Below, piece after piece: positions 1,614 through 36,426 of a DNA stretch of 37,028 nucleotides. The stretch lies in IMG/VR virus record IMGVR_UViG_2690316076_000004; one strand, written 5' to 3'. The notes below the pieces were generated by a model. It searched no databases. It was not told the DNA's origin and saw only the letters and a program-made list of their open reading frames with translations. How positions within the stretch are numbered: position 1 is the stretch's first letter; each line of letters starts with the position of its first letter. A program made the translations under genes and the position numbers. This DNA is from a virus (Duplodnaviria > Heunggongvirae > Uroviricota > Caudoviricetes).

Positions 1614-1653
1614 GCCCCTATCGTTATAATACGCGGTAGGGGCGTTTTTGTTT
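1614..1653 (+). terminator. putative intrinsic terminator
   Basis: GCCCCTA...TAGGGGC stem followed by GTTTTTGTTT. Confidence 0.5.
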
Positions 1654-1662
1654 GGAAATGGT

Positions 1663-3342
1663 ATGAAAACTAAACTGTATTCGTATATTCGCTTCTCGTC
1701 TATGCGTCAGAATGATGGTTCGAGTTATGAACGACAAATCAGGATGGCGAGAGAGGTTGCGGCAAAGTATGACCTTGAACTGGTAAATGATTATCAGGAT
1801 CTGGGTGTATCTGCGTTTAAGGGTGCTAACTCTAAAACAGGGGCGCTATCTCGTTTCCTTGATGCAATTGGTAGATCCGTTCCTGTTGGTAGCTGGCTAT
1901 TCATTGAAAACTTGGACCGCTTATCCCGTGCCGATATTGTCAGTGCGCAGGAGTTATTCCTTTCAATCATCCGTAGGGGGATAACCATTGTTACTGGCAT
2001 GGATAACAAGATCTACTCGCTGGATACTGTTACCGCTAACCCGATGGACCTGATGTTCTCCATCCTTTTATTCATCCGTGGTAATGAGGAAAGCCAGACT
2101 AAGCGCAATCGTACTAACTCAAGCGCACTGATTAAGATTAAAGCTCATCAAGAAAATCCACAAAATCCGGCAGTGGCAATCGAGGAAGTTGGAAAGAATA
2201 TGTGGTGGACTGATACCACTTCCGGTTATGTGTTGCCTCATCCTACATACTTCCCTGTTGTTCAGGAGATTGTGGAATTACGGAAGAATGGACGTTCAAC
2301 CGCCGAAATACTGGATCACCTTAACGAGACATATACACCGCCACCAGCAGTAAGCAACAAGAAGCATTCAAAATGGTCACGGGCAATGGTTGAAAGGTTG
2401 TTCCATACCCGCGCTTTGATTGGTATCAAGGAAGTCTCTGTAGATGGTGTTAACTATGAGTTAAAGGATTATTACCCTCGTGTTATTGATGATGCTACGT
2501 TCTATCACCTTAAGAAAAATATTGGTGCTAGAGCATGGAACTTTGGAGACAAGGAAGAAGTTAAACCGATCCCCCTGCTTAGTGGTATTGGCCTATTGAA
2601 ATGTGATCATTGCGGTTGCGCTATGGTTAAAGTGAAGGGAACGAACAAACGTTCTGACCAGTATCGTTATACATGTGATGCGACCCGTTCACGTAGACTT
2701 GATTGCGAGCATCCAAACTGGAGTTTTCGAGGTGATCAATTAGAGAAAGCTGTATTGCAATTGCTGGCTGATAAAATATGGATTGCTGAGGACAAGGCTA
2801 ATCCGGTTCCGGCGTTGAAAGTACAGGTTGATGAAATATCACGCAAGATTGATAACCTGATTGCCCTTTCTGCTATGACAGGAGCAACGAAGGAGCTAGC
2901 CGATCAGATTACTACCCTCAATAGCGAGCGTGAAACACTCTACAATCAGATCAAGATGGCAGAAGAGGAAATGTATTCTGTGGACTCTCAAGGCTGGGAG
3001 AAGCTCGCAGAATTTGATTTAGAAGATGTTTATAACGAGGAACGACTAAAGGTCCGGTTTAAGATTAAGCAAGCTCTAAAGCGGATCGGGTGTAGCAGGA
3101 TTGACAGAAACAAAAACTTGTTTGTACTGGAATACATCGATGGAAAAACCCAGAGAGTTGTAATAGAAAATTCAAGAGGAACGAGGAAAGGCCGGATCTT
3201 CATTGATTTGAAGACTATCAATGATAGGCAGATTCTGGAGAGCAACGGGCTTGTTCTGCATCCATGTTTAGACATGCTGACAGATAAGAACTGGAAACCA
3301 GAAGAGGAAATACCAGGTCCATTACAGGAATTTGGAATTTAA
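1663..3342 (+). CDS. large serine recombinase (resolvase/integrase family)
   Basis: N-terminal resolvase catalytic pattern (YSYIRFSS...Q), recombinase domain, Cys-rich zinc ribbon (CDHCGC...CDATRSRRLDCEH), C-terminal coiled-coil; track start at 1648 is TTG, ATG at 1663 preferred. Confidence 0.85.
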   Translation: MKTKLYSYIRFSSMRQNDGSSYERQIRMAREVAAKYDLELVNDYQDLGVSAFKGANSKTGALSRFLDAIGRSVPVGSWLFIENLDRLSRADIVSAQELFLSIIRRGITIVTGMDNKIYSLDTVTANPMDLMFSILLFIRGNEESQTKRNRTNSSALIKIKAHQENPQNPAVAIEEVGKNMWWTDTTSGYVLPHPTYFPVVQEIVELRKNGRSTAEILDHLNETYTPPPAVSNKKHSKWSRAMVERLFHTRALIGIKEVSVDGVNYELKDYYPRVIDDATFYHLKKNIGARAWNFGDKEEVKPIPLLSGIGLLKCDHCGCAMVKVKGTNKRSDQYRYTCDATRSRRLDCEHPNWSFRGDQLEKAVLQLLADKIWIAEDKANPVPALKVQVDEISRKIDNLIALSAMTGATKELADQITTLNSERETLYNQIKMAEEEMYSVDSQGWEKLAEFDLEDVYNEERLKVRFKIKQALKRIGCSRIDRNKNLFVLEYIDGKTQRVVIENSRGTRKGRIFIDLKTINDRQILESNGLVLHPCLDMLTDKNWKPEEEIPGPLQEFGI

Positions 3343-3376
3343 GCGGCCTAAATCGACGTATAACGAGCTAAAACAG

Positions 3377-3405
3377 TTAAGGGGTACATCCGTACCCCTT
3401 TTTAA
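3377..3405. terminator. intrinsic terminator between convergent genes
   Basis: GGGGTAC-ATCC-GTACCCC stem followed by TTTTTAATTT. Confidence 0.65.
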
Positions 3406-3415
3406 TTTAATTGCA

Positions 3416-4414
3416 TTAAAGAGCCTCTAAAGGGCTTAAATCGAGTTCTAAGTCTTCCGGTGTTAAATCAGCTAACGGTGCATTCATCCACTGCGATAAA
3501 TCTCGTTCTATGTCTTCATCACTAATGTAGTTGTTCAGATTGATTGCGTTGGTATCATCAAAATACATTGGCTTAGATGGGTTGATGTGGATGTATTCAT
3601 TGATGAATGATTTAACATCTTTCAGCTTGCTAATCGGTAGCGTTTCTGTGAATCCGCTATTCATTACCTTACGTGGGATTTTCTTGCCCTGAATATTCTT
3701 TTTAATCCCCATTTCTAAATCACCAGCTTTCCATCCAATGTTAAACAAATGTGAGCATTCAAAGGTGATTTTCTCGCTGGTGTGCTTCTGGTGTTCTCTT
3801 ACCCGTTGCATCGGATCTTTGCGAGTGGTAATTCCATATTTGAAAAACTTCTCGCCAACACGAATTAGATAAAAGTGCATAGGGCGCTGTGCAAACTTGT
3901 TTCTGATAACCTGTTTTCTACCATTCTGAATTGATTTAAGTACACCCCTAACCAAAGGGCATGTTAACCCGCCTTGTCTGCGGTTATTGTGTAAATCACC
4001 TTTCTTGTGAATCTTTCCGTGGCACTTACAACGAAGAATTAGTTTAGTGTCAACACCCTGATAAGGTTCAGCCAGACCTAACACATCCCACCCTATCGGC
4101 TTGTAGAACTTGCGAGCGTTTTCTAAGTGTTCTTCTTCGGTAAATCTAAACTTCTTCTTAGGCGGTGATACTCTATCTTTGCCAGTAAACTGACCAGTTA
4201 GAACATGACTAATACATGGCGTTTTAACCTTTCCATTAACTTCTATGCAAACTTTAGTGTTCTGGAATGGTTTCTTTACAGGAAGCACAAAACCACTGTA
4301 TAACCATCCATGCGCTTGACAAACTTTAATGATTCTGGTTTCATATTCGACCGGAGGGGTCGCACGTTTGCTTTTTGCGGTAAATTCGATATCCTTTGCT
4401 AAAGTAGTATTCAT
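3416..4414 (-). CDS. T5orf172 (GIY-YIG-like) domain protein with Cys/His cluster; putative homing-endonuclease-like DNA-binding protein
   Basis: segment HFYLIRVGEKFFKYGITTR...MQRVREH resembles T5orf172/GIY-YIG-like fold; CKCHGKIHKKGDLH...CPL Cys/His cluster; family assignment from memory. Confidence 0.5.
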   Translation of the reverse strand: MNTTLAKDIEFTAKSKRATPPVEYETRIIKVCQAHGWLYSGFVLPVKKPFQNTKVCIEVNGKVKTPCISHVLTGQFTGKDRVSPPKKKFRFTEEEHLENARKFYKPIGWDVLGLAEPYQGVDTKLILRCKCHGKIHKKGDLHNNRRQGGLTCPLVRGVLKSIQNGRKQVIRNKFAQRPMHFYLIRVGEKFFKYGITTRKDPMQRVREHQKHTSEKITFECSHLFNIGWKAGDLEMGIKKNIQGKKIPRKVMNSGFTETLPISKLKDVKSFINEYIHINPSKPMYFDDTNAINLNNYISDEDIERDLSQWMNAPLADLTPEDLELDLSPLEAL

Positions 4415-27191: not shown

Positions 27192-29099
27192 TTAGAACGA
27201 TGTTACCCAGCTACGGCCTCTATTTGGGCGTCTGGCGATGTTTTGACGTTGCGGTCGTGTGATTGGCTTAGTTTCTTCTATTTGCTCGTCAGATTGCGAT
27301 TTAGGAGCTTCTACGGATTCTTCGACAACACGGTTTAAGCTGTCTTTCATTGCAATGAGTTTATCCCATGACATTTTTGAAAGAACGTAGCGAGAAGCAG
27401 CATAGCTATAAACCAGACAGTCGAGAGCCTCGTTTCGGGTACTACCTGGATTTTTCACCCAACGCACGCCAGTAGTAGTACGCTTGATGGATTCACTCAA
27501 AAGCTGATCGAGATAATCATCAGGAACGGTTTCTGATATTTCTAAGCCAATATGAGGATTATCTTTCAGGTTTCTAACCAGCATTTCACGAACAGCGGAT
27601 TTCCCAACGTTAACACCCAGCATAAGCAATTCATGACCACCTGTACGGGTAGGTTTAACCGGAATCACTGGAGCATTACCAGATGAACTACCTTTGATAG
27701 CGTGTAGGTTCTTCCACTTGCCGCAAATACGGTATCCGGCTTGAGTGAATCGACCGTTCGATGTATCAAGGAAACTGGCGAGCATTGGTACACGTTCACC
27801 ATTAACGTTATAGAATTTGGTTTTCTTGAAGTTAACCAGACGATCCCAAACAGGTGATTCATATCGTTCACAGTTATGATCGTAAAAGCTGCGGTGATCC
27901 AGAATGTAAACCTTATCTTTCGCTACACCTAAGATGGTAGATTCTGCGCGGTCCAATTGCTGGTCAATTCCTGAGCACAAGAAAATCACGTCATCAGGGA
28001 TATTCTCGATAGAAACATCTGTTTTGAGTTGTTCCAGTTCATTTGCTTCTACTGCCGTGTCCTGATCGTCGTATACCTTGCCTAACACGGTGTTATAAAA
28101 TGATTGTAAATCAAAGGATTGCCACGCATGGCTAAAATCAACAACACAAGCGCGGATCGTGCTGAAAGGTGAATACAGACGGCTAATCCAGAATCCAGCT
28201 ACTTCACTTTCTCTCGTTACTCGCCATTCACCAGCAGCCACCGCCCTGATCCGCTCTCCTTCTGTCCATGCGTTCTTACAGTGGGGGCAAATATAACGAG
28301 CGGTATCAGGATCGGGTAAGTTCTTACCATCGATGTTACGCCATTCAAATTGAACGTTTTCCCACTCGATCACCTGGTGTTCCCCGCAATGAGGACACGG
28401 AACAAAAAACATACGCATATCGCTTGATAACCATTGCTGGTTAATGCTTCCGAGCTTACTGGTCGGGGTGCTGGATACGACTAATCGACCTTCATCGCCA
28501 AAGGTAGTTAAACGGTTAGCAGCCAGTGCCACCGGATCACCTTCTTCTGAGGCTGTAGCAGCATCGATTTCGTCAAGTAATCCAACCTTTGCGGTCTTAC
28601 CGCGTAGGGTTGATGGACTGGTAAGCGATACCATGTAAAGGAAGTGATTCGTTTTTAGCTGTAGCTGGTTATTGTTGTTAACCGCATTGCGATCATTCTT
28701 GTCTGTAACAACGTCTTTTAATGCATCACATGCTTCGATAGACGGTCGGATCTTACCAGCGAGATATTGAGACATTTCTTTAGCGGTTGATTGTCCGATA
28801 ATCATATTGCATGGATCGTTAGCCATCTGGTTAAACAGGATACCGTTCAGGATGGTAGTCTTTCCGATCTGTGCACTGGTCATCAGGACATACTTTTTCT
28901 TGTTCTCAAGGAAAGGTGCATCAATCATGCCTTTTTGGAATGACAACAATTTAACTTTATCCCCAGCTTGAGGACCATCTACCAGCACCATATTCGCTTC
29001 GCACCATTCAGACGGAAGGAGTTTAGGCGGTGGAGTGATATATTTTGCGGCATTTTTAAGAATCTTTTTTAATTTGGCCTTGTTCGAAATCAGTTTCAT
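27192..29099 (-). CDS. terminase large subunit, lambda gpA-like
   Basis: [26 protein letters not shown] (Walker A-like), [21 protein letters not shown] all mirror remembered gpA motifs; ATG at 29099 with GAGGG RBS preferred over track start 29174. Confidence 0.93.
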
Positions 29100-29142
29100 G
29101 TAATTACCCTCATTACGAAATATGAAGGTATTTATTAAATTG

Positions 29143-29170
29143 TTGATATTTTGATAAATACGGGTATTAA
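29143..29170 (+). promoter_or_regulatory. candidate sigma70-type promoter in divergent terL/HTH-gene intergenic region
   Basis: TTGATA (29143-29148), 16-nt spacer, TATTAA (29165-29170), about 15 nt upstream of the 29185 ATG. Confidence 0.35.
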
Positions 29171-29184
29171 TCAAAGGGGGTTGT

Positions 29185-30350: not shown

Positions 30351-31184
30351 TCAGATCCCAAAATCAACAAGGGAAATTACGTTACCTGATTCACGAATCT
30401 GTTTAGCAGCTTTGTTTTGAATCAGAATAGTGTTATTTGGCTGCGGCAGTTTAAGAGTTGCTTTCTGTTCTTCTTCCAAAACGCCCAATTCAACCAGCAC
30501 CGGAAGAACATCAACAGTAAACTCAAGCTGGTAATGAGCATTCATGCGGCAGAAAGACAGAGAAGAGTCATTAGCAACATACCCACACGGCTTGTTATTT
30601 TCATCATAGACGCGCTCAATGTAGCCAGCAGTACGTAAGGCCGTCAGTGCTTGTTTAACCTTCGTAGCGCCCTTTTTAGCGCCTAACAGACGTGTCATAG
30701 AATGGCTATCTACGGATTTGCGAATGTGTAGCTCAATCAGTTTTTTATTTTTGCGTTTTTCATCTAATGCCAGTTCGATCCAGTCGGTTTCTTCAAAGTC
30801 CGCATACGGGTTAACAGGAGTATTATTGGCGGTTTTCAGTTTCTCTTCCAGATAATTCCAACGGTCAACCAGTTGGCGAGTAAATTCCGGTACGTTTTGA
30901 GCAATCAAGACAATCGAATCTAAGCGACCTTGCTCACCCTCAAACACATAATCTTTAACAGTAACAGCAAACCCTAAGTTATTGATTTTCTCGAAATTCT
31001 GCGTTGCAGGTTTTCGGATAACTTGGCGTTCAACCAGTCGGTTCATAGAAGTTTCAAGGTTTGAAAAACGAACTCCAATAAGGTCGGCAATTTCACGAAG
31101 AGTCATTTTTGCAACTTCGTTATCAACAACCAGAGACACGGAAGCAGTTTTAACAGCAGTATTCATAGTAGTAACAGTATTCAT
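30351..31184 (-). CDS. Rha/ORF6N-type phage regulatory protein (antirepressor-like)
   Basis: N-terminal MTLREIADLIGVRFSNLETSMNRL resembles Rha/ORF6N DNA-binding pattern; family call from memory. Confidence 0.5.
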   Translation of the reverse strand: MNTVTTMNTAVKTASVSLVVDNEVAKMTLREIADLIGVRFSNLETSMNRLVERQVIRKPATQNFEKINNLGFAVTVKDYVFEGEQGRLDSIVLIAQNVPEFTRQLVDRWNYLEEKLKTANNTPVNPYADFEETDWIELALDEKRKNKKLIELHIRKSVDSHSMTRLLGAKKGATKVKQALTALRTAGYIERVYDENNKPCGYVANDSSLSFCRMNAHYQLEFTVDVLPVLVELGVLEEEQKATLKLPQPNNTILIQNKAAKQIRESGNVISLVDFGI

Positions 31185-32185: not shown

Positions 32186-32766
32186 AGTGGTATCCTCTAA
32201 AAAGAAAGTGAATCAATCTAATATTATTTATAAAGAGAAAATTCTTGTTATTATGAAAGGTGATTGGATTCAGTCGGCTTCGCCTCCTTCATGATTTTTG
32301 ATTAAATCATCGTCAAAACGAAGAAGTATCTTTAGAATATAAGAATCTTTCTTTTGGAGAAATAATAATCAGGAAGCAATTTAGCAACCGAAGGTTGCAA
32401 TCCCGAAGGGATACCAATACCTTTCATGATCATTAAAGTGATTATTACTATCTTTCTAGAATCAGTTAGTAACTAGTTTAAAATCCCTTTCGAGAAAATC
32501 CTTTCAGAAGTGATTCTCGATGCCACGCAGTGGCGTCGCAGACGTTTGAGAGTGAGCGAAGCGAGCGAGCAAACTAGTTAATTCCTTCTAAGACCATCTA
32601 GTATCATCTAGTTTAAATTAGTTGTTACTAGAAGCAATTGGTTGGCGCTTCGCGCAGTCGGGCTAAAGCCCTCCTAATATCTTTCTGGTTATTTGTTGTT
32701 TTTAGTTTTACACATGAGCGTAGCGAATGTGTTATATAATATCTATGCACGCCGAATCCCTGCTTT

Positions 32767-33010
32767 TGCCCCTCGCTAAGTTAATGTTTTATAAAGAGTT
32801 TTTCTCACCAATTCCTTTCAGGGGCAAATTTCAGGGGCAAAAATTAGATTTTCAGGGGCAATTATTGGCATTTCAGGGGCAAAAATGAGGGGCAAAATCA
32901 CCGTTTCCCAGAATTTCAGGGGCAAAAATATAGGGTTTCAGGGGCAAAAATGGGATGTGGAATCTAGGGGATTTTGGTTCAGGGGCAAAAATTCAGAATT
33001 TCAGGGGCAA
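32767..33010. repeat. iteron-like array of TTCAGGGGCAA
   Basis: exact 11-mers at 32817, 32830, 32851, 32872, 32915, 32937, 32978, 33000, variants at 32886 and ~32963, one inverted core at 32767-32775; spacing mostly 21-22 bp or multiples. Confidence 0.85.
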
Positions 33011-33100
33011 TTCCCATCAAATATTTTGATAGAAAATTCCTGTATATTATTTAATCAAAAAATCACCAAAAAGCGGCGTAAGTTAATGATTTAAAAAGAA

Positions 33101-33126
33101 TTGTCAAAAGGTCTCCGTGCTATAAT
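33101..33126 (+). promoter_or_regulatory. possible extended -10 promoter
   Basis: TTGTCA then TGC-TATAAT (TGnTATAAT) at 33118-33126; -35 spacing suboptimal (14 nt). Confidence 0.3.
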
Positions 33127-33206
33127 AGGTTATAAAGGTTGATAATCCTGCTCTACCATTTTCAAACAAAAATTTTGATAGTCATTTCTCGCTTAGGTCA
33201 AGTGTA

Positions 33207-33235
33207 TTGACAACTGTCAAGGATTATTTTATACT
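33207..33235 (+). promoter_or_regulatory. strong sigma70-type promoter
   Basis: TTGACA (33207-33212), 17-nt spacer, TATACT (33230-33235); overlaps TTGACAA/TGTCAA near-palindrome. Confidence 0.5.
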
Positions 33236-33371
33236 TTTTCTCACTGGTGGGGGTTGAAATTTTCTAAACAGTCCCCATATAGATGATAAGCAAGAATTTC
33301 CACGTTATAAATACATGTGTGAAATGATTGTTCACTTCTGAAAATCTCCTGATTCACTGCTAATTCATACA

Positions 33372-33400
33372 GCACTGGTTAGATATACAGTGCTTTTTCG
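33372..33400 (+). terminator. hairpin + T-tract (leader terminator/attenuator 1)
   Basis: AGCACTG-GTTAGATATA-CAGTGCT followed by TTTT. Confidence 0.4.
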
Positions 33401-33457
33401 GTTGAATATTGTACGAATTGATTAATAATTAATCTTCTCTTTAGCAATTCGTGCTCC

Positions 33458-33484
33458 CACTGATCGGATATACAGTGGTTTTAC
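33458..33484 (+). terminator. hairpin + T-tract (leader terminator/attenuator 2)
   Basis: CCACTG-ATCGGATATA-CAGTGG followed by TTTTA; same CACTG..GATATA..CAGTG architecture as 33372. Confidence 0.4.
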
Positions 33485-33523
33485 AGGGTTTTCTGAAAAT
33501 CATTTTATAAATACAAGTGTTCA

Positions 33524-33544
33524 GAGCGAAATGCTCTTTTTTAA
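33524..33544 (+). terminator. hairpin + T-tract directly upstream of small HTH gene
   Basis: AGAGC-GAAAT-GCTCT followed by TTTTTT, about 20 nt before the RBS of the 33578 gene. Confidence 0.45.
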
Positions 33545-33577
33545 GAAATTATTAATCCACATGTGAGGAATCGACTG

Positions 33578-33757
33578 ATGGCTAGACCTGTTAAGTTCAC
33601 TCGTGAAATGATTGTTGATATTGCTAAACGCTTTTACAGCGACACTGAGCGAGGCGGGGAAAACTTCTTTAAGAAGGAAGGAATTGATAGAAGCGGATTC
33701 TACAAGCTAATGAAGAAATACGAAATTCAGGTAAAGATTAACGTTCAAGTTTGTTAA
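33578..33757 (+). CDS. small HTH protein, paralog of 29816-30046
   Basis: ATG at 33578 with TGAGGAA RBS (track start 33563 is GTG); sequence parallels the 76-aa protein. Confidence 0.5.
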   Translation: MARPVKFTREMIVDIAKRFYSDTERGGENFFKKEGIDRSGFYKLMKKYEIQVKINVQVC

Positions 33758-33871
33758 TCCACTTTCACTGAGAATTATATGATGGCTTTAAAAAAGAAAA
33801 AGCCTCCTTTGCTGCAACAAGGGAGGCTTGAAATGAACAATTAAAACTAACTTTCCACAGGAGTATTTATA

Positions 33872-34834
33872 ATGTTATTTTCCGCTAACTTTTTCACTAA
33901 CGAAGTAACCAACGCTAAAGCAGTTATCAAATTTGGCACCGAAGCAAACAAGAAGATTCAGCCGAAAGTTGTTGCTCATGTTTCCTTTGCGCAGCAGAAA
34001 TCCGCTTTCGCTGGCTTTAAAGCACATCGTGAAGCACTGATCGCGGCTGGCTTTGGTGTTGACGGTAAACTGCCTAACGGCATTCGTAAAGCAATCGACC
34101 GCGTTAAACCTGCTAAAGACGTTGCAGTAGACCACATCGTTACTTTCACCGTTAAGAACTCTTCTGAACTGTTCCACCTAGTGATTGCTGGTGATACTGC
34201 TATCGTTTCCGCTCCTAACATGGATTTTCAGGATACCGCTGATTGCAACATTACCTTTGGTCGTCGTAAAGAAGTTACCGGAAAAGCTAAACTGAACTTC
34301 ACCAAATCCGGCAATCCTTACTTTGCTGTATTCTTTAACAGCCACGCTACTGAGAAAGAAGTAGTAGAACTGGTTGCATATGAAGGTGAAGAAAAAGCAC
34401 GTATTGAATCTTGCGACGCTTTCGTAGAACTGGAAGCACAGGTTAATGCTGTTTCTCCGGTTGCTGTTGAAGATCGTTTCTCTGCACTGGAAGCACAGAT
34501 CGCAGAACTGAAAGCTGCACTGAAAGAAAAAGACCAGATCATCGAAGCACAGAAAGCTGAGATTGAAGAACTGAAAGCTAAAGAAGTTGCTCCGGTTGCT
34601 GTTGAAGCAGATCGGGAAGTTGAATCTAAAGACTTCTTTACTCAAGCGGTTGAATCTAAAGACAAACAAGCTCTTTGGATTCTGCTTAACGAAAAGCGTA
34701 CTGTTGCAGACGTTGCAGAATGGAACAAATACCTGATTAAGAAAAATGGTTCTTCCGTTCAATTCATCGATTTAATGACAGTTAAAGTTTTTGATGCGTT
34801 CGAAAATGTGTTCGACGTTCGCAAAGCAGCTTAA
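33872..34834 (+). CDS. hypothetical protein with host-like high-expression codon usage and central coiled-coil
   Basis: 320-aa ORF with AGGAG RBS; codons dominated by CTG, CGT, GGT, AAC, GAC, ACC unlike the AT-rich structural genes; coiled-coil EAQIAELKAALKEKDQIIEAQKAEIEELKAK. Confidence 0.65.
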   Translation: MLFSANFFTNEVTNAKAVIKFGTEANKKIQPKVVAHVSFAQQKSAFAGFKAHREALIAAGFGVDGKLPNGIRKAIDRVKPAKDVAVDHIVTFTVKNSSELFHLVIAGDTAIVSAPNMDFQDTADCNITFGRRKEVTGKAKLNFTKSGNPYFAVFFNSHATEKEVVELVAYEGEEKARIESCDAFVELEAQVNAVSPVAVEDRFSALEAQIAELKAALKEKDQIIEAQKAEIEELKAKEVAPVAVEADREVESKDFFTQAVESKDKQALWILLNEKRTVADVAEWNKYLIKKNGSSVQFIDLMTVKVFDAFENVFDVRKAA

Positions 34835-35871: not shown

Positions 35872-36426
35872 TTAAGACACATCAAATTCATCGTCTTCAT
35901 CTGGTTCTTGTTCCGGTTCATCGATTAATGGTAATTCTTCTTCCTCGTCTTCTCCCAAATCCGCATTTTCGAACAAGTCCCCTACTTCATTTAAACGACG
36001 CTCGATGATCTCCCTTAGCTTATTCTTCAATGTTTTCTGGTCGGTGGCAGATTCTAAAATTTCTAAAGCATCGATTGTGGCGATCTGCAAAATAGTCTGT
36101 TTCACTTTCCCGCAATATTCCGCTAGTTCCTGTTCTACATAACCGACCGGAATCAGGAGGTTCATTGCTTCCTGGTTCTCTCGTTCGGCTGCATCTGCCA
36201 ATGCTCTCTCACGGCGTAATTTCTCTACGTCGATTTGTTCTTTGATGGAAGTGTTTTTTAACGGGTTAATGATGTTCTTTAGCACCCAATCGCAACCTTC
36301 TTTGGCTGGAACACGTCGTGTGTTGGTGTTAAATGGCAATCCCCTTTCTATCCATCGCTTACCGCCACCATTCAATGAATAGCCGTATAAACGGGAAATT
36401 TCTGTAAGGGTTAATTCTTCTTTCAT
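35872..36426 (-). CDS. terminase small subunit, lambda Nu1-like
   Basis: N-terminal LTLTEISRLYGYSLNGGGKRWIERGLPF and EKLRRERALADA resemble remembered Nu1 (QLADIFGASIRTIQNW...RGGGKG... ENEKLRRE); acidic C-terminus; GGAGGA RBS. Confidence 0.75.
   Translation of the reverse strand: MKEELTLTEISRLYGYSLNGGGKRWIERGLPFNTNTRRVPAKEGCDWVLKNIINPLKNTSIKEQIDVEKLRRERALADAAERENQEAMNLLIPVGYVEQELAEYCGKVKQTILQIATIDALEILESATDQKTLKNKLREIIERRLNEVGDLFENADLGEDEEEELPLIDEPEQEPDEDDEFDVS

What the first reader, a model, noticed from the sequence alone, without database searches (positions are those of the whole stretch)
33236..33577. Structured untranslated leader with three hairpin/T-tract elements downstream of a strong promoter
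Between the TTGACA-17-TATACT promoter (33207-33235) and the next gene (ATG 33578) lie ~340 nt with three terminator-like hairpins. Two share the architecture CACTG-N4-GATATA-CAGTG-TTTT (33372-33400, 33458-33484); the third is 33524-33544. Two TTATAAATACA motifs sit exactly 200 bp apart (33306 and 33506). This suggests either one or more small RNAs or an antitermination-controlled leader.
Basis: seen in the sequence. Interest (0 to 1): 0.55.

Follow-up and report, generated by a model that had tools for sequence, protein, structure and literature searches.

The report
Stress-wired control cassette of a prophage

Summary
The stretch is non-coding: relatives differ by 1-2-nt indels. It is conserved at 89-100% in 31 of 5,426 complete E. 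coli genomes.

The window is a ~35-kb prophage inserted in ycdX. The stretch lies between eight iterons and a small helix-turn-helix-like gene, which is followed by a gene that co-varies perfectly with iteron type.

- **Heat-shock promoter.** A sigma32-type box at 33254-33280 is kept in all four non-homologous versions of this cassette. The same box precedes hsp20 genes in unrelated phages.
- **Promoter boxes.** The two TTATAAATACA motifs belong to a family of 16 ATAAATA boxes. All are intergenic and nearly all point at a gene. The sequence equals the T4 late-promoter consensus.
- **LexA look-alikes.** Hairpins 1 and 2, plus a third adjacent site, fit CTG-N10-CAG SOS boxes, with heterology indices of 9.4, 13.7 and 12.6. 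Only this cassette type has them.
- **RNA fold.** Hairpin 1 and a long-range helix show modest covariation. Hairpin 2 alone does not.

My best reading is a modular, cis-acting control cassette driven by host factors, with attenuation. A discrete trans-acting small RNA is not excluded. Nothing has been tested experimentally.

The parts
32816..33011 (+). Eight iterons TTTCAGGGGCAAA at 21-22-bp phasing. They form the left neighbour of the cassette.
   Evidence: Iteron type co-varies perfectly with the N-terminus of the third gene downstream.
33207..33235 (+). Sigma70 promoter TTGACA-17-TATACT. The -35 hexamer lies inside the palindrome TTGACAACTGTCAA (33207-33220). The start site is inferred near 33242.
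   Evidence: 11 of 12 consensus positions. Kept in all type-A cassettes.
33254..33280 (+). Sigma32-type heat-shock promoter: TTGAAA (33254-33259), 13-nt gap, CCCCATAT (33273-33280). The start site is inferred near 33287.
   Evidence: It is the only match in 37 kb to TTGAA-N13-17-CCCCATNT, against 0.02 expected. The consensus comes from PMC4263515 and PMC6687850. The box is kept in cassette types A, B, C and D. The same box lies 39-66 nt upstream of hsp20 genes in unrelated phage contigs.
33305..33315 (+). TTATAAATACA box 1 (TATAAATA at 33306-33313), a phage-type promoter-like box. The T4 rule predicts a start near 33319.
   Evidence: T4 late-promoter consensus from PMC1524935.
33322..33347 (+). 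Invariant 26-nt stretch GAAATGATTGTTCACTTCTGAAAATC. Its role is unknown. Part of it is the 5' strand of the long-range helix.
   Evidence: 100% identical in 20 distinct type-A leaders.
33355..33374 (.). SOS-box look-alike 0, CACTGCTAATTCATACAGCA. It cannot form an RNA hairpin.
   Evidence: Heterology index 12.55 in the window and 7.1-11.4 in most relatives.
33371..33398 (+). Hairpin 1 (7-bp stem, 10-nt loop, five T). It coincides with SOS-box look-alike 1, CACTGGTTAGATATACAGTG (33373-33392).
   Evidence: Free energy -10.1 kcal/mol, z -3.2. The closing pair is A-U in 16 sequences, G-C in 2 and G.U in 1. Heterology index 9.40, the lowest of the 11 CTG-N10-CAG sites in the window. P = 0.005 given the arms and a random AT-rich loop.
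33402..33429 (+). Weak internal sigma70-like site TTGAAT-16-AATAAT.
   Evidence: 9 of 12 consensus positions. Only partly conserved. Inference only.
33411..33454 (+). 10-bp hairpin GUACGAAUUG / CAAUUCGUGC. Its 3' half lies inside motif M3 (33433-33455), which is shared with cassette B.
   Evidence: One pair changes U.G to C-G and another A-U to G.U. M3 was used as the search key.
33457..33482 (+). Hairpin 2 (6-bp stem, 10-nt loop, four T). It coincides with SOS-box look-alike 2, CACTGATCGGATATACAGTG (33458-33477).
   Evidence: Free energy -7.4 kcal/mol, z -1.4. No covariation and two disruptions. Heterology index 13.72, range 12.4-16.5 in relatives.
33340..33494 (+). RNA domain closed by a long-range helix (33340-33361 with 33472-33494). 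It encloses hairpin 1 and the 10-bp hairpin, and is an alternative to hairpin 2.
   Evidence: RNAalifold. 3 pairs change on both sides, reached by 2 of 500 shuffles. Free energy -43 kcal/mol, z -4.2.
33505..33515 (+). TTATAAATACA box 2 (TATAAATA at 33506-33513), 9 nt upstream of hairpin 3. The predicted start is near 33519.
   Evidence: A TATAAATA box lies 4-9 nt upstream of this hairpin in cassette types A, B and C.
33523..33542 (+). Hairpin 3 plus a T6 run: a weak intrinsic terminator and the right boundary shared by all cassettes.
   Evidence: The core GAGC/GCUC and the T-run are kept in types A, B and C.
33578..33757 (+). First gene of the operon: a 59-aa, three-helix, helix-turn-helix-like protein.
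   Evidence: No family match.
33790..33871 (-). Candidate antisense RNA of about 69 nt. TATAAATA at 33871-33864, start near 33858 (complement of the AGGAG of the next gene), then a strong terminator at 33829-33800 with a T-run.
   Evidence: The box is kept in relative L105. Inference only.
33872..34834 (+). 320-aa protein whose N-terminal type matches the iteron type. It is the presumed iteron-binding protein, possibly a replication initiator.
   Evidence: An Escherichia/Shigella-only family with no Pfam domain. The structure model is poor.

Best explanation
The stretch is one version ("type A") of an exchangeable, protein-free control cassette for the rightward operon of a ycdX-integrating E. 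coli prophage. That operon encodes a small helix-turn-helix-like protein and then the iteron-matched 320-aa protein. The cassette works in cis and mostly through host factors.

Transcription would start at a near-consensus sigma70 promoter (33207-33235) and at a sigma32 heat-shock promoter 45 bp downstream (33254-33280). The transcripts then cross about 260 nt of non-coding DNA.

At the DNA level this stretch carries two adjacent LexA-type boxes (33355-33374 and 33373-33392) and a weaker third box (33458-33477). At the RNA level it forms hairpin 1 with a U-run, a 10-bp hairpin, a long-range helix (or hairpin 2), and a final weak terminator at 33523-33542.

The result would be that few transcripts reach the genes unless one of three things happens:
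- sigma32 rises after heat or protein-folding stress;
- LexA is cleaved after DNA damage;
- the phage's own TATAAATA-box transcription, from boxes at 33306 and 33506, starts inside or beyond the attenuator.

Shown here: the sequence matches, their statistics, their conservation and the modular exchange. Inferred: the start sites, LexA and sigma32 use, termination, and the direction of regulation.
For: Non-coding and conserved:
- 31 of 5,426 genomes carry it at 89-100% identity.
- Relatives differ by indels.
- The leader is better conserved than the ORF downstream.

Modular:
- The same flanks carry non-homologous cassettes A, B, C and D.
- Cassette type assorts independently of iteron type, third-gene type and small-ORF allele.
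- This fits trans factors that are host-encoded or common to the whole family.

Sigma32 box:
- It is the only match in the window, against 0.02 expected.
- It is present in 29 of 30 family contigs whatever the cassette type.
- In L152 the prefix is CCCC instead of GGGG. That fits the promoter consensus and destroys the alternative GGGG/CCCC RNA hairpin.
- The same box precedes Hsp20 genes in at least 27 unrelated phage contigs.

SOS boxes:
- All three sites have exact CTG-N10-CAG spacing.
- The heterology index is 9.40 for hairpin 1. This is the range of the K-12 sites tabulated with those indices in PMC12527982 Table S1, which I recall as ruvAB 9.19, recN 9.38 and cho 9.54.
- P = 0.005 given the arms.
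- Box 0 is not an RNA hairpin, yet scores 7.1-11.4 in relatives.
- All 16 type-A contigs have 2-3 such sites. None of the 13 type-B contigs, type C or type D has any.

RNA structure.

TATAAATA boxes.
Against: - No experiment of any kind supports this, and no transcript ends are known.
- The SOS-like boxes lie +114 to +236 from the sigma70 start and do not overlap any convincing promoter, unlike classical LexA operators.
- Box 2 is borderline (13.7).
- Box 0 is destroyed in three relatives by a change that the RNA stem of hairpin 1 compensates in two of them.
- The one "compensatory" pair that favours the long-range helix also moves both boxes toward the LexA consensus, so the RNA and DNA readings are confounded.
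- Hairpins 2 and 3 are weak. 10-nt loops are atypical for terminators.
- The sigma32 -35 has G instead of C before TTGAA.
- Cassettes B, C and D lack SOS boxes, so LexA input is not essential to the family.
- No factor for the TATAAATA boxes was found.
- Sequence diversity is low (92% mean column identity), so the covariation statistics are modest.
Confidence: 0.5

Rival explanations
1. This is a pure RNA attenuator. The three hairpins with U-runs are intrinsic terminators in a structured leader, read through by some antitermination mechanism. The LexA-like and sigma32-like matches are incidental.
For: - U-runs follow all three hairpins and are conserved.
- Hairpin 1 has a covarying closing pair.
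- The leader folds better than shuffled sequence.
- Hairpin 3 is the only + strand terminator call in the region.
- All cassette types end with the same hairpin and T-run.
Against: - It does not explain the exact 10-nt spacing in three sites.
- It does not explain box 0, which is not a hairpin.
- It does not explain the ATACAG half-site, or why the loop of hairpin 1 scores in the top 0.5% for LexA likeness.
- The sigma32 box is too well supported to be incidental.
- No antiterminator gene and no nut, put or Q-like element was seen.
- No Rfam match.
- Hairpins 2 and 3 are no more stable than shuffled sequence.
Confidence: 0.2
2. The cassette is chiefly a gene for one or more trans-acting small RNAs, for example a ~155-nt RNA ending at hairpin 1 or a ~300-nt RNA ending at hairpin 3. 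This RNA would act as immunity or copy-number control, in the manner of the P4 CI RNA or the P1 c4 RNA, and cassette types would be specificity types.
For: - A strong constitutive-looking promoter is followed by terminators.
- The exchanged segment encodes no protein, which suits an RNA determinant.
- TTATAAATAC is complementary to GTATTTATAA at the ribosome-binding site and ATG of the 320-aa gene. The 27-nt arms 33488-33514 and 33863-33889 are 78% complementary.
- An AU-rich stretch precedes the final hairpin, as in Hfq-binding RNAs (my own knowledge).
Against: - No match to Rfam C4 or to any other family.
- Relatives with a different third gene lack the complementary site but keep the leader motif.
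- The motif belongs to a 16-member promoter-like family.
- A 12-nt complement at 32502 is not linked to cassette type.
- No type-specific target was found.
Confidence: 0.12
3. The signals serve the adjacent origin rather than gene expression. Transcription from the strong promoter would activate an iteron origin, and the palindromes and boxes would be binding sites for host replication or nucleoid proteins.
For: - Eight iterons and an AT-rich tract lie immediately upstream.
- The operon encodes the iteron-matched protein.
- Transcriptional activation of origins is known for lambda (my own knowledge).
Against: - Transcription runs away from the iterons.
- No DnaA-box or IHF consensus match was seen by eye in 33236-33577.
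- The cassette is exchanged independently of iteron type.
Confidence: 0.08

Closest known systems
LexA-controlled prophage switches (coliphage 186 p95/tum, Bacillus phage GIL01, CTXphi) and colicin promoters with tandem SOS boxes
   Same: Host LexA boxes are built into a mobile element's control region. Two adjacent boxes occur, as at colicin genes. This would give DNA-damage input without a phage-encoded cleavable repressor.
   Different: Here the boxes lie more than 100 nt downstream of the start sites rather than over a promoter. They coincide with hairpin and U-run motifs. Only one of four cassette versions has them. LexA binding has not been tested.
Sigma32 heat-shock promoters (dnaK, groE, ibpA; consensus CTTGAA-N13-17-CCCCATNT)
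   Same: 5 of 6 and 8 of 8 consensus positions with a 14-nt spacer. The same box precedes phage hsp20 genes.
   Different: Here it drives a prophage regulatory and replication-type operon rather than a chaperone. It sits 45 bp downstream of a sigma70 promoter in type A, and just before the terminator in type B.
Lambda pR'-tR' 6S leader and Q antitermination
   Same: A strong promoter is followed by a short non-coding transcript that ends at a terminator before the genes. The module is exchanged among related phages.
   Different: There is no Q-like gene upstream, no Q-binding or pause element was identified, the terminators are several and weak, and the genes controlled are early or replication-type rather than late.
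P4 immunity leader (CI RNA) and P1/P7 c4 RNA
   Same: A protein-free, type-specific non-coding segment lies downstream of a constitutive promoter and upstream of replication or antirepressor genes.
   Different: There is no Rfam C4 match, no conserved seqA/B/C-type complementarities and no evidence of processing.
T4-type late promoters (TATAAATA at -13 to -6, read by gp55)
   Same: The same 8-mer is present, restricted to intergenic DNA and pointing at genes, including inside the structural operon.
   Different: This is a temperate 35-kb prophage with no detectable gp55, gp33 or gp45. Two boxes lie inside a leader and one is antisense to a ribosome-binding site.

Membership tests
Sigma70 promoter | TTGACA and TATAAT hexamers 16-18 bp apart | tested here: met
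   TTGACA-17-TATACT, 11 of 12 positions. Conserved in type A.
Sigma32 heat-shock promoter | CTTGAA-N13-17-CCCCATNT | tested here: met
   GTTGAA-N14-CCCCATAT at 33253-33280. It is the only match in the window against 0.02 expected. Consensus taken.
Sigma32 heat-shock promoter | Association with heat-shock genes elsewhere | tested here: met
   The same box lies 39-66 nt upstream of PF00011 Hsp20 genes in at least 27 unrelated phage contigs.
Sigma32 heat-shock promoter | Transcription by E-sigma32 and heat induction | not testable with these tools
   Needs in vitro transcription or start-site mapping after a heat shift.
LexA SOS box | CTG-N10-CAG palindrome with an AT-rich centre (TACTG(TA)5CAGTA) | tested here: met
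   Three sites at 33355, 33373 and 33458. Consensus from PMC12527982.
LexA SOS box | Heterology index in the range of validated sites | tested here: inconclusive
   Hairpin 1 scores 9.40, inside the range. Box 0 scores 12.55 (7.1-11.4 in relatives). Hairpin 2 scores 13.72, at the cluster limit of about 13.6. The matrix was rebuilt exactly from Table S1 of PMC12527982.
LexA SOS box | Operator overlaps the regulated promoter | tested here: not met
   No convincing promoter overlaps 33355-33392 or 33458-33477 on either strand (and reading).
LexA SOS box | LexA binding and SOS induction | not testable with these tools
   Needs gel shift or footprinting, and reporters in lexA(Ind-) and recA backgrounds.
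Intrinsic (Rho-independent) terminator | Stable GC-rich stem, short loop, U-run directly after the stem | tested here: inconclusive
   Hairpin 3: 5 bp, 5-nt loop, U6, -5.9 kcal/mol. Hairpin 1: 7 bp, 10-nt loop, U5, -10.1 kcal/mol. Hairpin 2: 6 bp, 10-nt loop, U4, -7.4 kcal/mol. The U-runs are conserved.
Conserved RNA secondary structure | Compensatory base changes | tested here: inconclusive
   The model with the long-range helix has 3 pairs changed on both sides, reached by 2 of 500 shuffles. The model with local hairpin 2 has 1 pair, reached by 142 of 500. Diversity is low, and one pair is confounded with LexA likeness.
Rfam families, including C4 (P1 c4 / P4 CI), riboswitches and leaders | Covariance-model match | tested here: not met
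   No hit at gathering score in the window. No hit within 33236-33577 at E up to 10.
P4 CI / P1 c4-type antisense control | Leader segment complementary to a downstream target, kept across relatives | tested here: not met
   The complementarity to the ribosome-binding site of the 320-aa gene exists. It is absent where the third gene differs, although the leader motif stays.
T4-type late promoter | TATAAATA box upstream of genes | tested here: met
   9 TATAAATA and 16 ATAAATA copies, all intergenic, against 0.96 and 2.95 in shuffles. 13 precede a start codon on the same strand.
T4-type late promoter | gp55-like sigma factor encoded by the phage | tested here: not met
   No such PHROG or Pfam hit among the 24 window proteins scanned. 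The 184-aa protein has no tblastn hit in phages. Most structural-region proteins were not scanned.
Lambda Q / pR'-tR' module | Antiterminator gene immediately upstream of the promoter | tested here: not met
   Iterons and non-coding DNA lie upstream. There is no ORF of 60 aa or more between 32186 and 33577 apart from repeat-derived frames.

The most novel reading that the evidence does not exclude
A family of temperate E. coli phages has no recognisable repressor or replication genes. It controls its replication-type operon through a swappable, protein-free cassette that plugs host stress sensors directly into the phage: sigma32 in every version and LexA in one. The rest of the genome would be transcribed from T4-late-type TATAAATA promoters by an unknown factor. 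Heat or proteotoxic stress would then be a built-in induction signal, and cassette swapping would change which stresses induce the prophage.
Probability: 0.25. Interest if true: 0.8.

Novelty: new variant of a known kind. Interest (0 to 1): 0.6.

Why it matters
Prophage induction is usually explained by a phage repressor that senses RecA. Here the control DNA itself appears to carry binding sites for host stress regulators, namely a heat-shock sigma factor and LexA. It is also exchanged as a unit between related prophages.

If this is right, it gives a directly testable example of heat or proteotoxic-stress input into a prophage. It would also show how prophages re-wire their induction signals by swapping cassettes.

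A further consequence is that a common but unstudied Escherichia/Shigella prophage family, present in about 1% of complete E. coli genomes, becomes a system for three questions: T4-late-like promoters in a temperate phage, an unknown iteron-binding protein, and a possible antisense RNA.

If the matches turn out not to function, the region is an ordinary structured 5' leader.

Tried and rejected
- **DNA similarity to GenBank phages and PLSDB plasmids.** Near and distant searches found nothing. The element is known only as an unannotated prophage.
- **Rfam and tRNA scans.** Rfam at gathering score and at E up to 10 found nothing in the leader, and there are no tRNA or tmRNA genes.
- **Minus-strand 44-aa ORF at 33241-33375.** It is broken by a 2-nt indel in relatives. 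A 72-aa minus-strand ORF in cassette B is broken in L010.
- **Motif M1 as a 5' GGGG/CCCC RNA hairpin.** Rejected in favour of the sigma32 promoter, because L152 has CCCCTTGAA...CCCCATAT and the box precedes hsp20 genes.
- **TTATAAATAC as an antisense seed for the ribosome-binding site of the 320-aa gene.** The complementarity is real. It was rejected as the main role, because relatives with another third gene lack the target and the motif is one of 16 promoter-like boxes.
- **The 12-nt perfect complement 32502-32513 versus 33332-33343.** It is not linked to cassette type.
- **TATAAATA as a sigma70 -10 element.** It contains no TAnnnT, so this is unlikely (reasoning from the consensus).
- **Identity of the 59-aa and 320-aa proteins.** Pfam, PHROGs and PDB sequence searches gave no hit. 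The AlphaFold models were weak (pLDDT 64 and 44). Foldseek gave no significant match. The 5.8-billion-protein search returned only Escherichia/Shigella hypothetical proteins.
- **Host identification through the genome-contig scan.** This failed. The host was obtained from cluster names instead.
- **Literature search for a ycdX prophage or sigma32-driven prophage control.** Nothing relevant was found.
Full report
**What the window is.** The 37-kb window is essentially one whole prophage of Escherichia coli.
- It carries a large serine recombinase (1648-3342), an endolysin, and tail and head genes on the minus strand.
- It has a lambda gpA-type large terminase (27192-29174) and a Rha-family gene (30351-31184).
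- Exact-sequence look-ups name E. coli and Shigella as hosts and show the element splitting the host gene ycdX.
- A sibling in O55:H7 DEC5A is inserted in hicB instead.
- The region around the finding occurs in 57 of 5,426 complete E. coli genomes.
- Nothing similar is present among GenBank phages or PLSDB plasmids.
- RefSeq annotates nothing between 32186 and 33577.
- No CI-type repressor or replication protein is recognisable.

**Observation check.**
- The promoter TTGACA-17-TATACT (33207-33235) matches 11 of 12 consensus positions.
- The next gene starts at ATG 33578, behind GAGGA.
- Hairpin 1 has a 7-bp stem (33371-33377 with 33388-33394), a 10-nt loop and five T. Its free energy is -10.1 kcal/mol, z -3.2.
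- Hairpin 2 (33457-33462 with 33473-33478, then four T) and hairpin 3 (33523-33527 with 33533-33537, then six T) are weak. Their free energies are -7.4 and -5.9 kcal/mol, no better than shuffled sequence.
- CACTG-N10-CAGTG occurs exactly twice in the window.
- The two TTATAAATACA copies start 200 bp apart.

**Non-coding, conserved and modular.** Thirty family contigs in IMG/VR and 31 complete genomes carry this version of the leader at 89-100% identity.
- In a four-way alignment the leader is almost invariant, while the 59-aa ORF behind it diverges strongly.
- Indels of 1-2 nt rule out coding.
- In other family members the segment from the last iteron to just before hairpin 3 is replaced by unrelated sequence of similar length. 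These are type B, type C (L109) and type D (L152).
- Only a few islands are shared between types:
  - a box reading GGGGTTGAAA-N13-CCCCATAT (motif M1);
  - TATAAATA;
  - the 23-mer TCTTCTCTTTAGCAATTCGTGCT (motif M3);
  - the final hairpin with its T-run.

**Context.**
- Upstream lie eight iterons, TTTCAGGGGCAAA (32816-33011).
- Across the loci fetched, iteron type predicts the N-terminus of the third gene without exception:
  - GGGGCAA with MLFSAN, 35 of 35;
  - GTGTAGG with MKNSKR, 16 of 16;
  - CCGGGG with MKQNNF, 2 of 2.
- Cassette type and small-ORF allele assort freely. The 320-aa product is therefore very probably the iteron-binding protein. A replication-initiator role is an inference.
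- That protein family is an Escherichia/Shigella-only family without known domains.
- The 59-aa protein is a three-helix, helix-turn-helix-like protein without a significant match.

**A heat-shock promoter inside the "leader".** Positions 33254-33280 read TTGAAATTTTCTAAACAGTCCCCATAT.
- This fits the E. coli sigma32 consensus CTTGAA-N13-17-CCCCATNT / CCCCATWT (PMC4263515 and PMC6687850).
- It is the only such match in the window, against 0.02 expected.
- The box is kept in 29 of 30 family contigs whatever the cassette type.
- I first read it as a 5' RNA hairpin (GGGG pairing with CCCC). Two results speak against that reading:
  - In L152 the prefix is CCCC, the canonical CCCCTTGAA, which cannot pair.
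  - A scan of IMG/VR for the box returned about 31 unrelated environmental phage contigs. In at least 27 of them the box lies 39-66 nt upstream of an Hsp20 small heat-shock protein gene.
- The transcription start near 33287 is inferred.

**The TTATAAATACA pair belongs to a phage-wide box family.**
- TATAAATA occurs 9 times and ATAAATA 16 times in the window.
- Every copy is intergenic. Composition-matched shuffles of the intergenic DNA give 0.96 and 2.95 copies.
- Thirteen copies lie 24-79 nt upstream of a start codon on the same strand. These include sites before the terminase gene and inside the structural operon.
- The same sites are kept in the DEC5A relative.
- The sequence equals the T4 late-promoter consensus, positioned at -13 to -6 (PMC1524935). 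It contains no TAnnnT, so it is a poor sigma70 -10 element.
- No gp55-like protein was detected among those scanned.
- In cassettes A, B and C a TATAAATA box lies 4-9 nt upstream of hairpin 3.
- A third nearby copy is on the minus strand over the ribosome-binding site of the 320-aa gene. It is followed by a strong minus-strand terminator, which suggests an antisense RNA of about 69 nt.

**The two similar hairpins look like LexA boxes.**
- CACTG-N10-CAGTG matches the core of the SOS box TACTG(TA)5CAGTA (PMC12527982).
- I rebuilt that paper's heterology-index matrix by regression on 145 tabulated sites. The fit is exact, and the largest hold-out error is 9e-5.
- Hairpin 1 scores 9.40. This is the range of sites tabulated at 9.19, 9.38 and 9.54, which I recall as ruvAB, recN and cho. 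It is the lowest of the 11 CTG-N10-CAG sites in the window.
- With the arms fixed and a random AT-rich loop, only 0.5% of sequences score as low.
- Hairpin 2 scores 13.72, which is borderline.
- A third site, 33355-33374, abuts hairpin 1 and is not a hairpin. It scores 12.55 here and 7.1-11.4 in most relatives.
- All 16 type-A contigs have two or three such sites. Types B, C and D have none.
- Against a classical operator role, the boxes overlap no convincing promoter.

**RNA structure.**
- The leader folds with z -3.5.
- RNAalifold on 20 distinct type-A sequences keeps hairpin 1, a 10-bp hairpin (33411-33420 with 33445-33454) and hairpin 3.
- It replaces hairpin 2 by a long-range helix, 33340-33361 with 33472-33494.
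- Counting pairs, the long-range model has three pairs changed on both sides, reached by 2 of 500 shuffles. The local model has one, reached by 142 of 500.
- The closed domain folds to -43 kcal/mol, z -4.2.
- Two cautions apply. Diversity is low, and the C-to-A / G-to-U pair in L140 also improves both LexA scores.
- Other changes point in different directions:
  - The A-to-G change in three relatives destroys box 0 and is compensated in the stem of hairpin 1 in two of them.
  - A G-to-A change in L053 breaks the stem but lowers the index to 6.6.
- The DNA and RNA readings therefore cannot be separated from sequence alone, and both may hold.
- Type B also predicts a long-range fold, with its own repeats TGTTA and TAACA, but it is too conserved to test.

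**Tests for a trans-acting RNA.**
- No Rfam family matches, including C4.
- The complementarity between TTATAAATAC and the ribosome-binding site of the 320-aa gene is real. It is absent in relatives with another third gene.
- A 12-nt complement at 32502 is unlinked to cassette type.
- A discrete small RNA is not excluded, but nothing specific supports it.

**Synthesis.** The best-supported reading is a cis-acting, exchangeable control cassette for the operon that encodes the small helix-turn-helix-like protein and the iteron-matched protein.
- It combines tandem sigma70 and sigma32 promoters, LexA-type boxes that coincide with hairpin and U-run motifs, a structured RNA domain, phage-type promoter boxes and a weak terminal terminator.
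- Its portability makes sense if its trans factors are host proteins or are common to the family.
- Shown here: the matches, their statistics, their conservation and the modular exchange.
- Inferred: the start sites, the binding, the termination and the regulatory logic.
- Compared with known systems, it resembles LexA-wired prophage switches, colicin promoters, heat-shock promoters and the lambda pR'-tR' leader. It meets the full definition of none of them.
- I file it as a new variant of a known kind, a phage early-operon control region, with moderate interest.

Noticed in passing
window, 16 sites: 944+, 4455-, 5570-, 11857-, 13135-, 16884-, 29135-, 29154+, 31261-, 32231-, 33307+, 33507+, 33870-, 35863-, 36463-, 36685+: The ATAAATA / TATAAATA box family is found only in intergenic DNA and almost always points at the next gene. 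It is identical to the T4 late-promoter consensus. No gp55-like factor was found in this temperate 35-kb prophage.
   Followed up: partly
window 33790-33871, minus strand: Candidate antisense RNA of about 69 nt. A TATAAATA box overlaps the ATG and spacer of the 320-aa gene, the predicted start lies at the complement of its AGGAG, and a strong terminator follows (33829-33800, about -20 kcal/mol) with a T-run. It resembles a replication-control countertranscript.
   Followed up: partly
window 32816-33011 and 33872-34834; loci L001-L015, L038-L109: Three iteron types (TTTCAGGGGCAAA, TAGTGTAGG, CCTAATACCGGGGGA) pair without exception with three unrelated N-termini of the third gene. The protein family is an Escherichia/Shigella-only family with no known domain.
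   Followed up: partly
window 32380-32680: The left half of the 1.4-kb non-coding region holds several GC-rich palindromes: GCAACCGAAGGTTGC, CCCGAAGGG, GCCACGCAGTGGC and GGGCTAAAGCCC. They could be a cos site or another structured RNA.
   Followed up: no
loci L108, L110-L139 (environmental IMG/VR contigs): An almost invariant box, gtgtgGGGGTTGAAAtttggttTTCAATCCCCATATAAATATAg, lies 39-66 nt upstream of phage-encoded Hsp20 genes. It is a sigma32-type promoter shared by unrelated aquatic phages, and is followed by a conserved hairpin in the 5' untranslated region.
   Followed up: partly
locus L152 800-1600: A fourth cassette type. It has an extra small helix-turn-helix gene (MEQKKRGRKPTYAPE...), a canonical CCCCTTGAA...CCCCATAT box, two TATAAATA boxes, a different terminal hairpin and no SOS box.
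   Followed up: no
loci L002-L014, about 3180-3680 (cassette B): Two tandem consensus sigma70 promoters. Three GTGTAGG motifs surround the first promoter, although these phages carry GGGGCAA iterons. There are also three TGTTA and five TAACA repeats.
   Followed up: no
window 33020-33040 and 33170-33190; 33101-33127: Two copies of AAA(T/A)ATTTTGATAG lie 149 bp apart. They flank a second promoter-like site, TTGTCA-15-TATAAT, upstream of the main promoter.
   Followed up: no
window 35872-36426 (-) versus 27192-29174 (-): The only candidate for a small terminase subunit (weak PHROG 57 hit) lies 6.7 kb away from the large subunit. It is separated from it by the regulatory region.
   Followed up: no
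window 29103-29184: Divergent boxes GTATTTATCA ... TAATAAATAC form an inverted pair between the terminase gene and the 200-aa gene. This fits back-to-back phage-type promoters.
   Followed up: no
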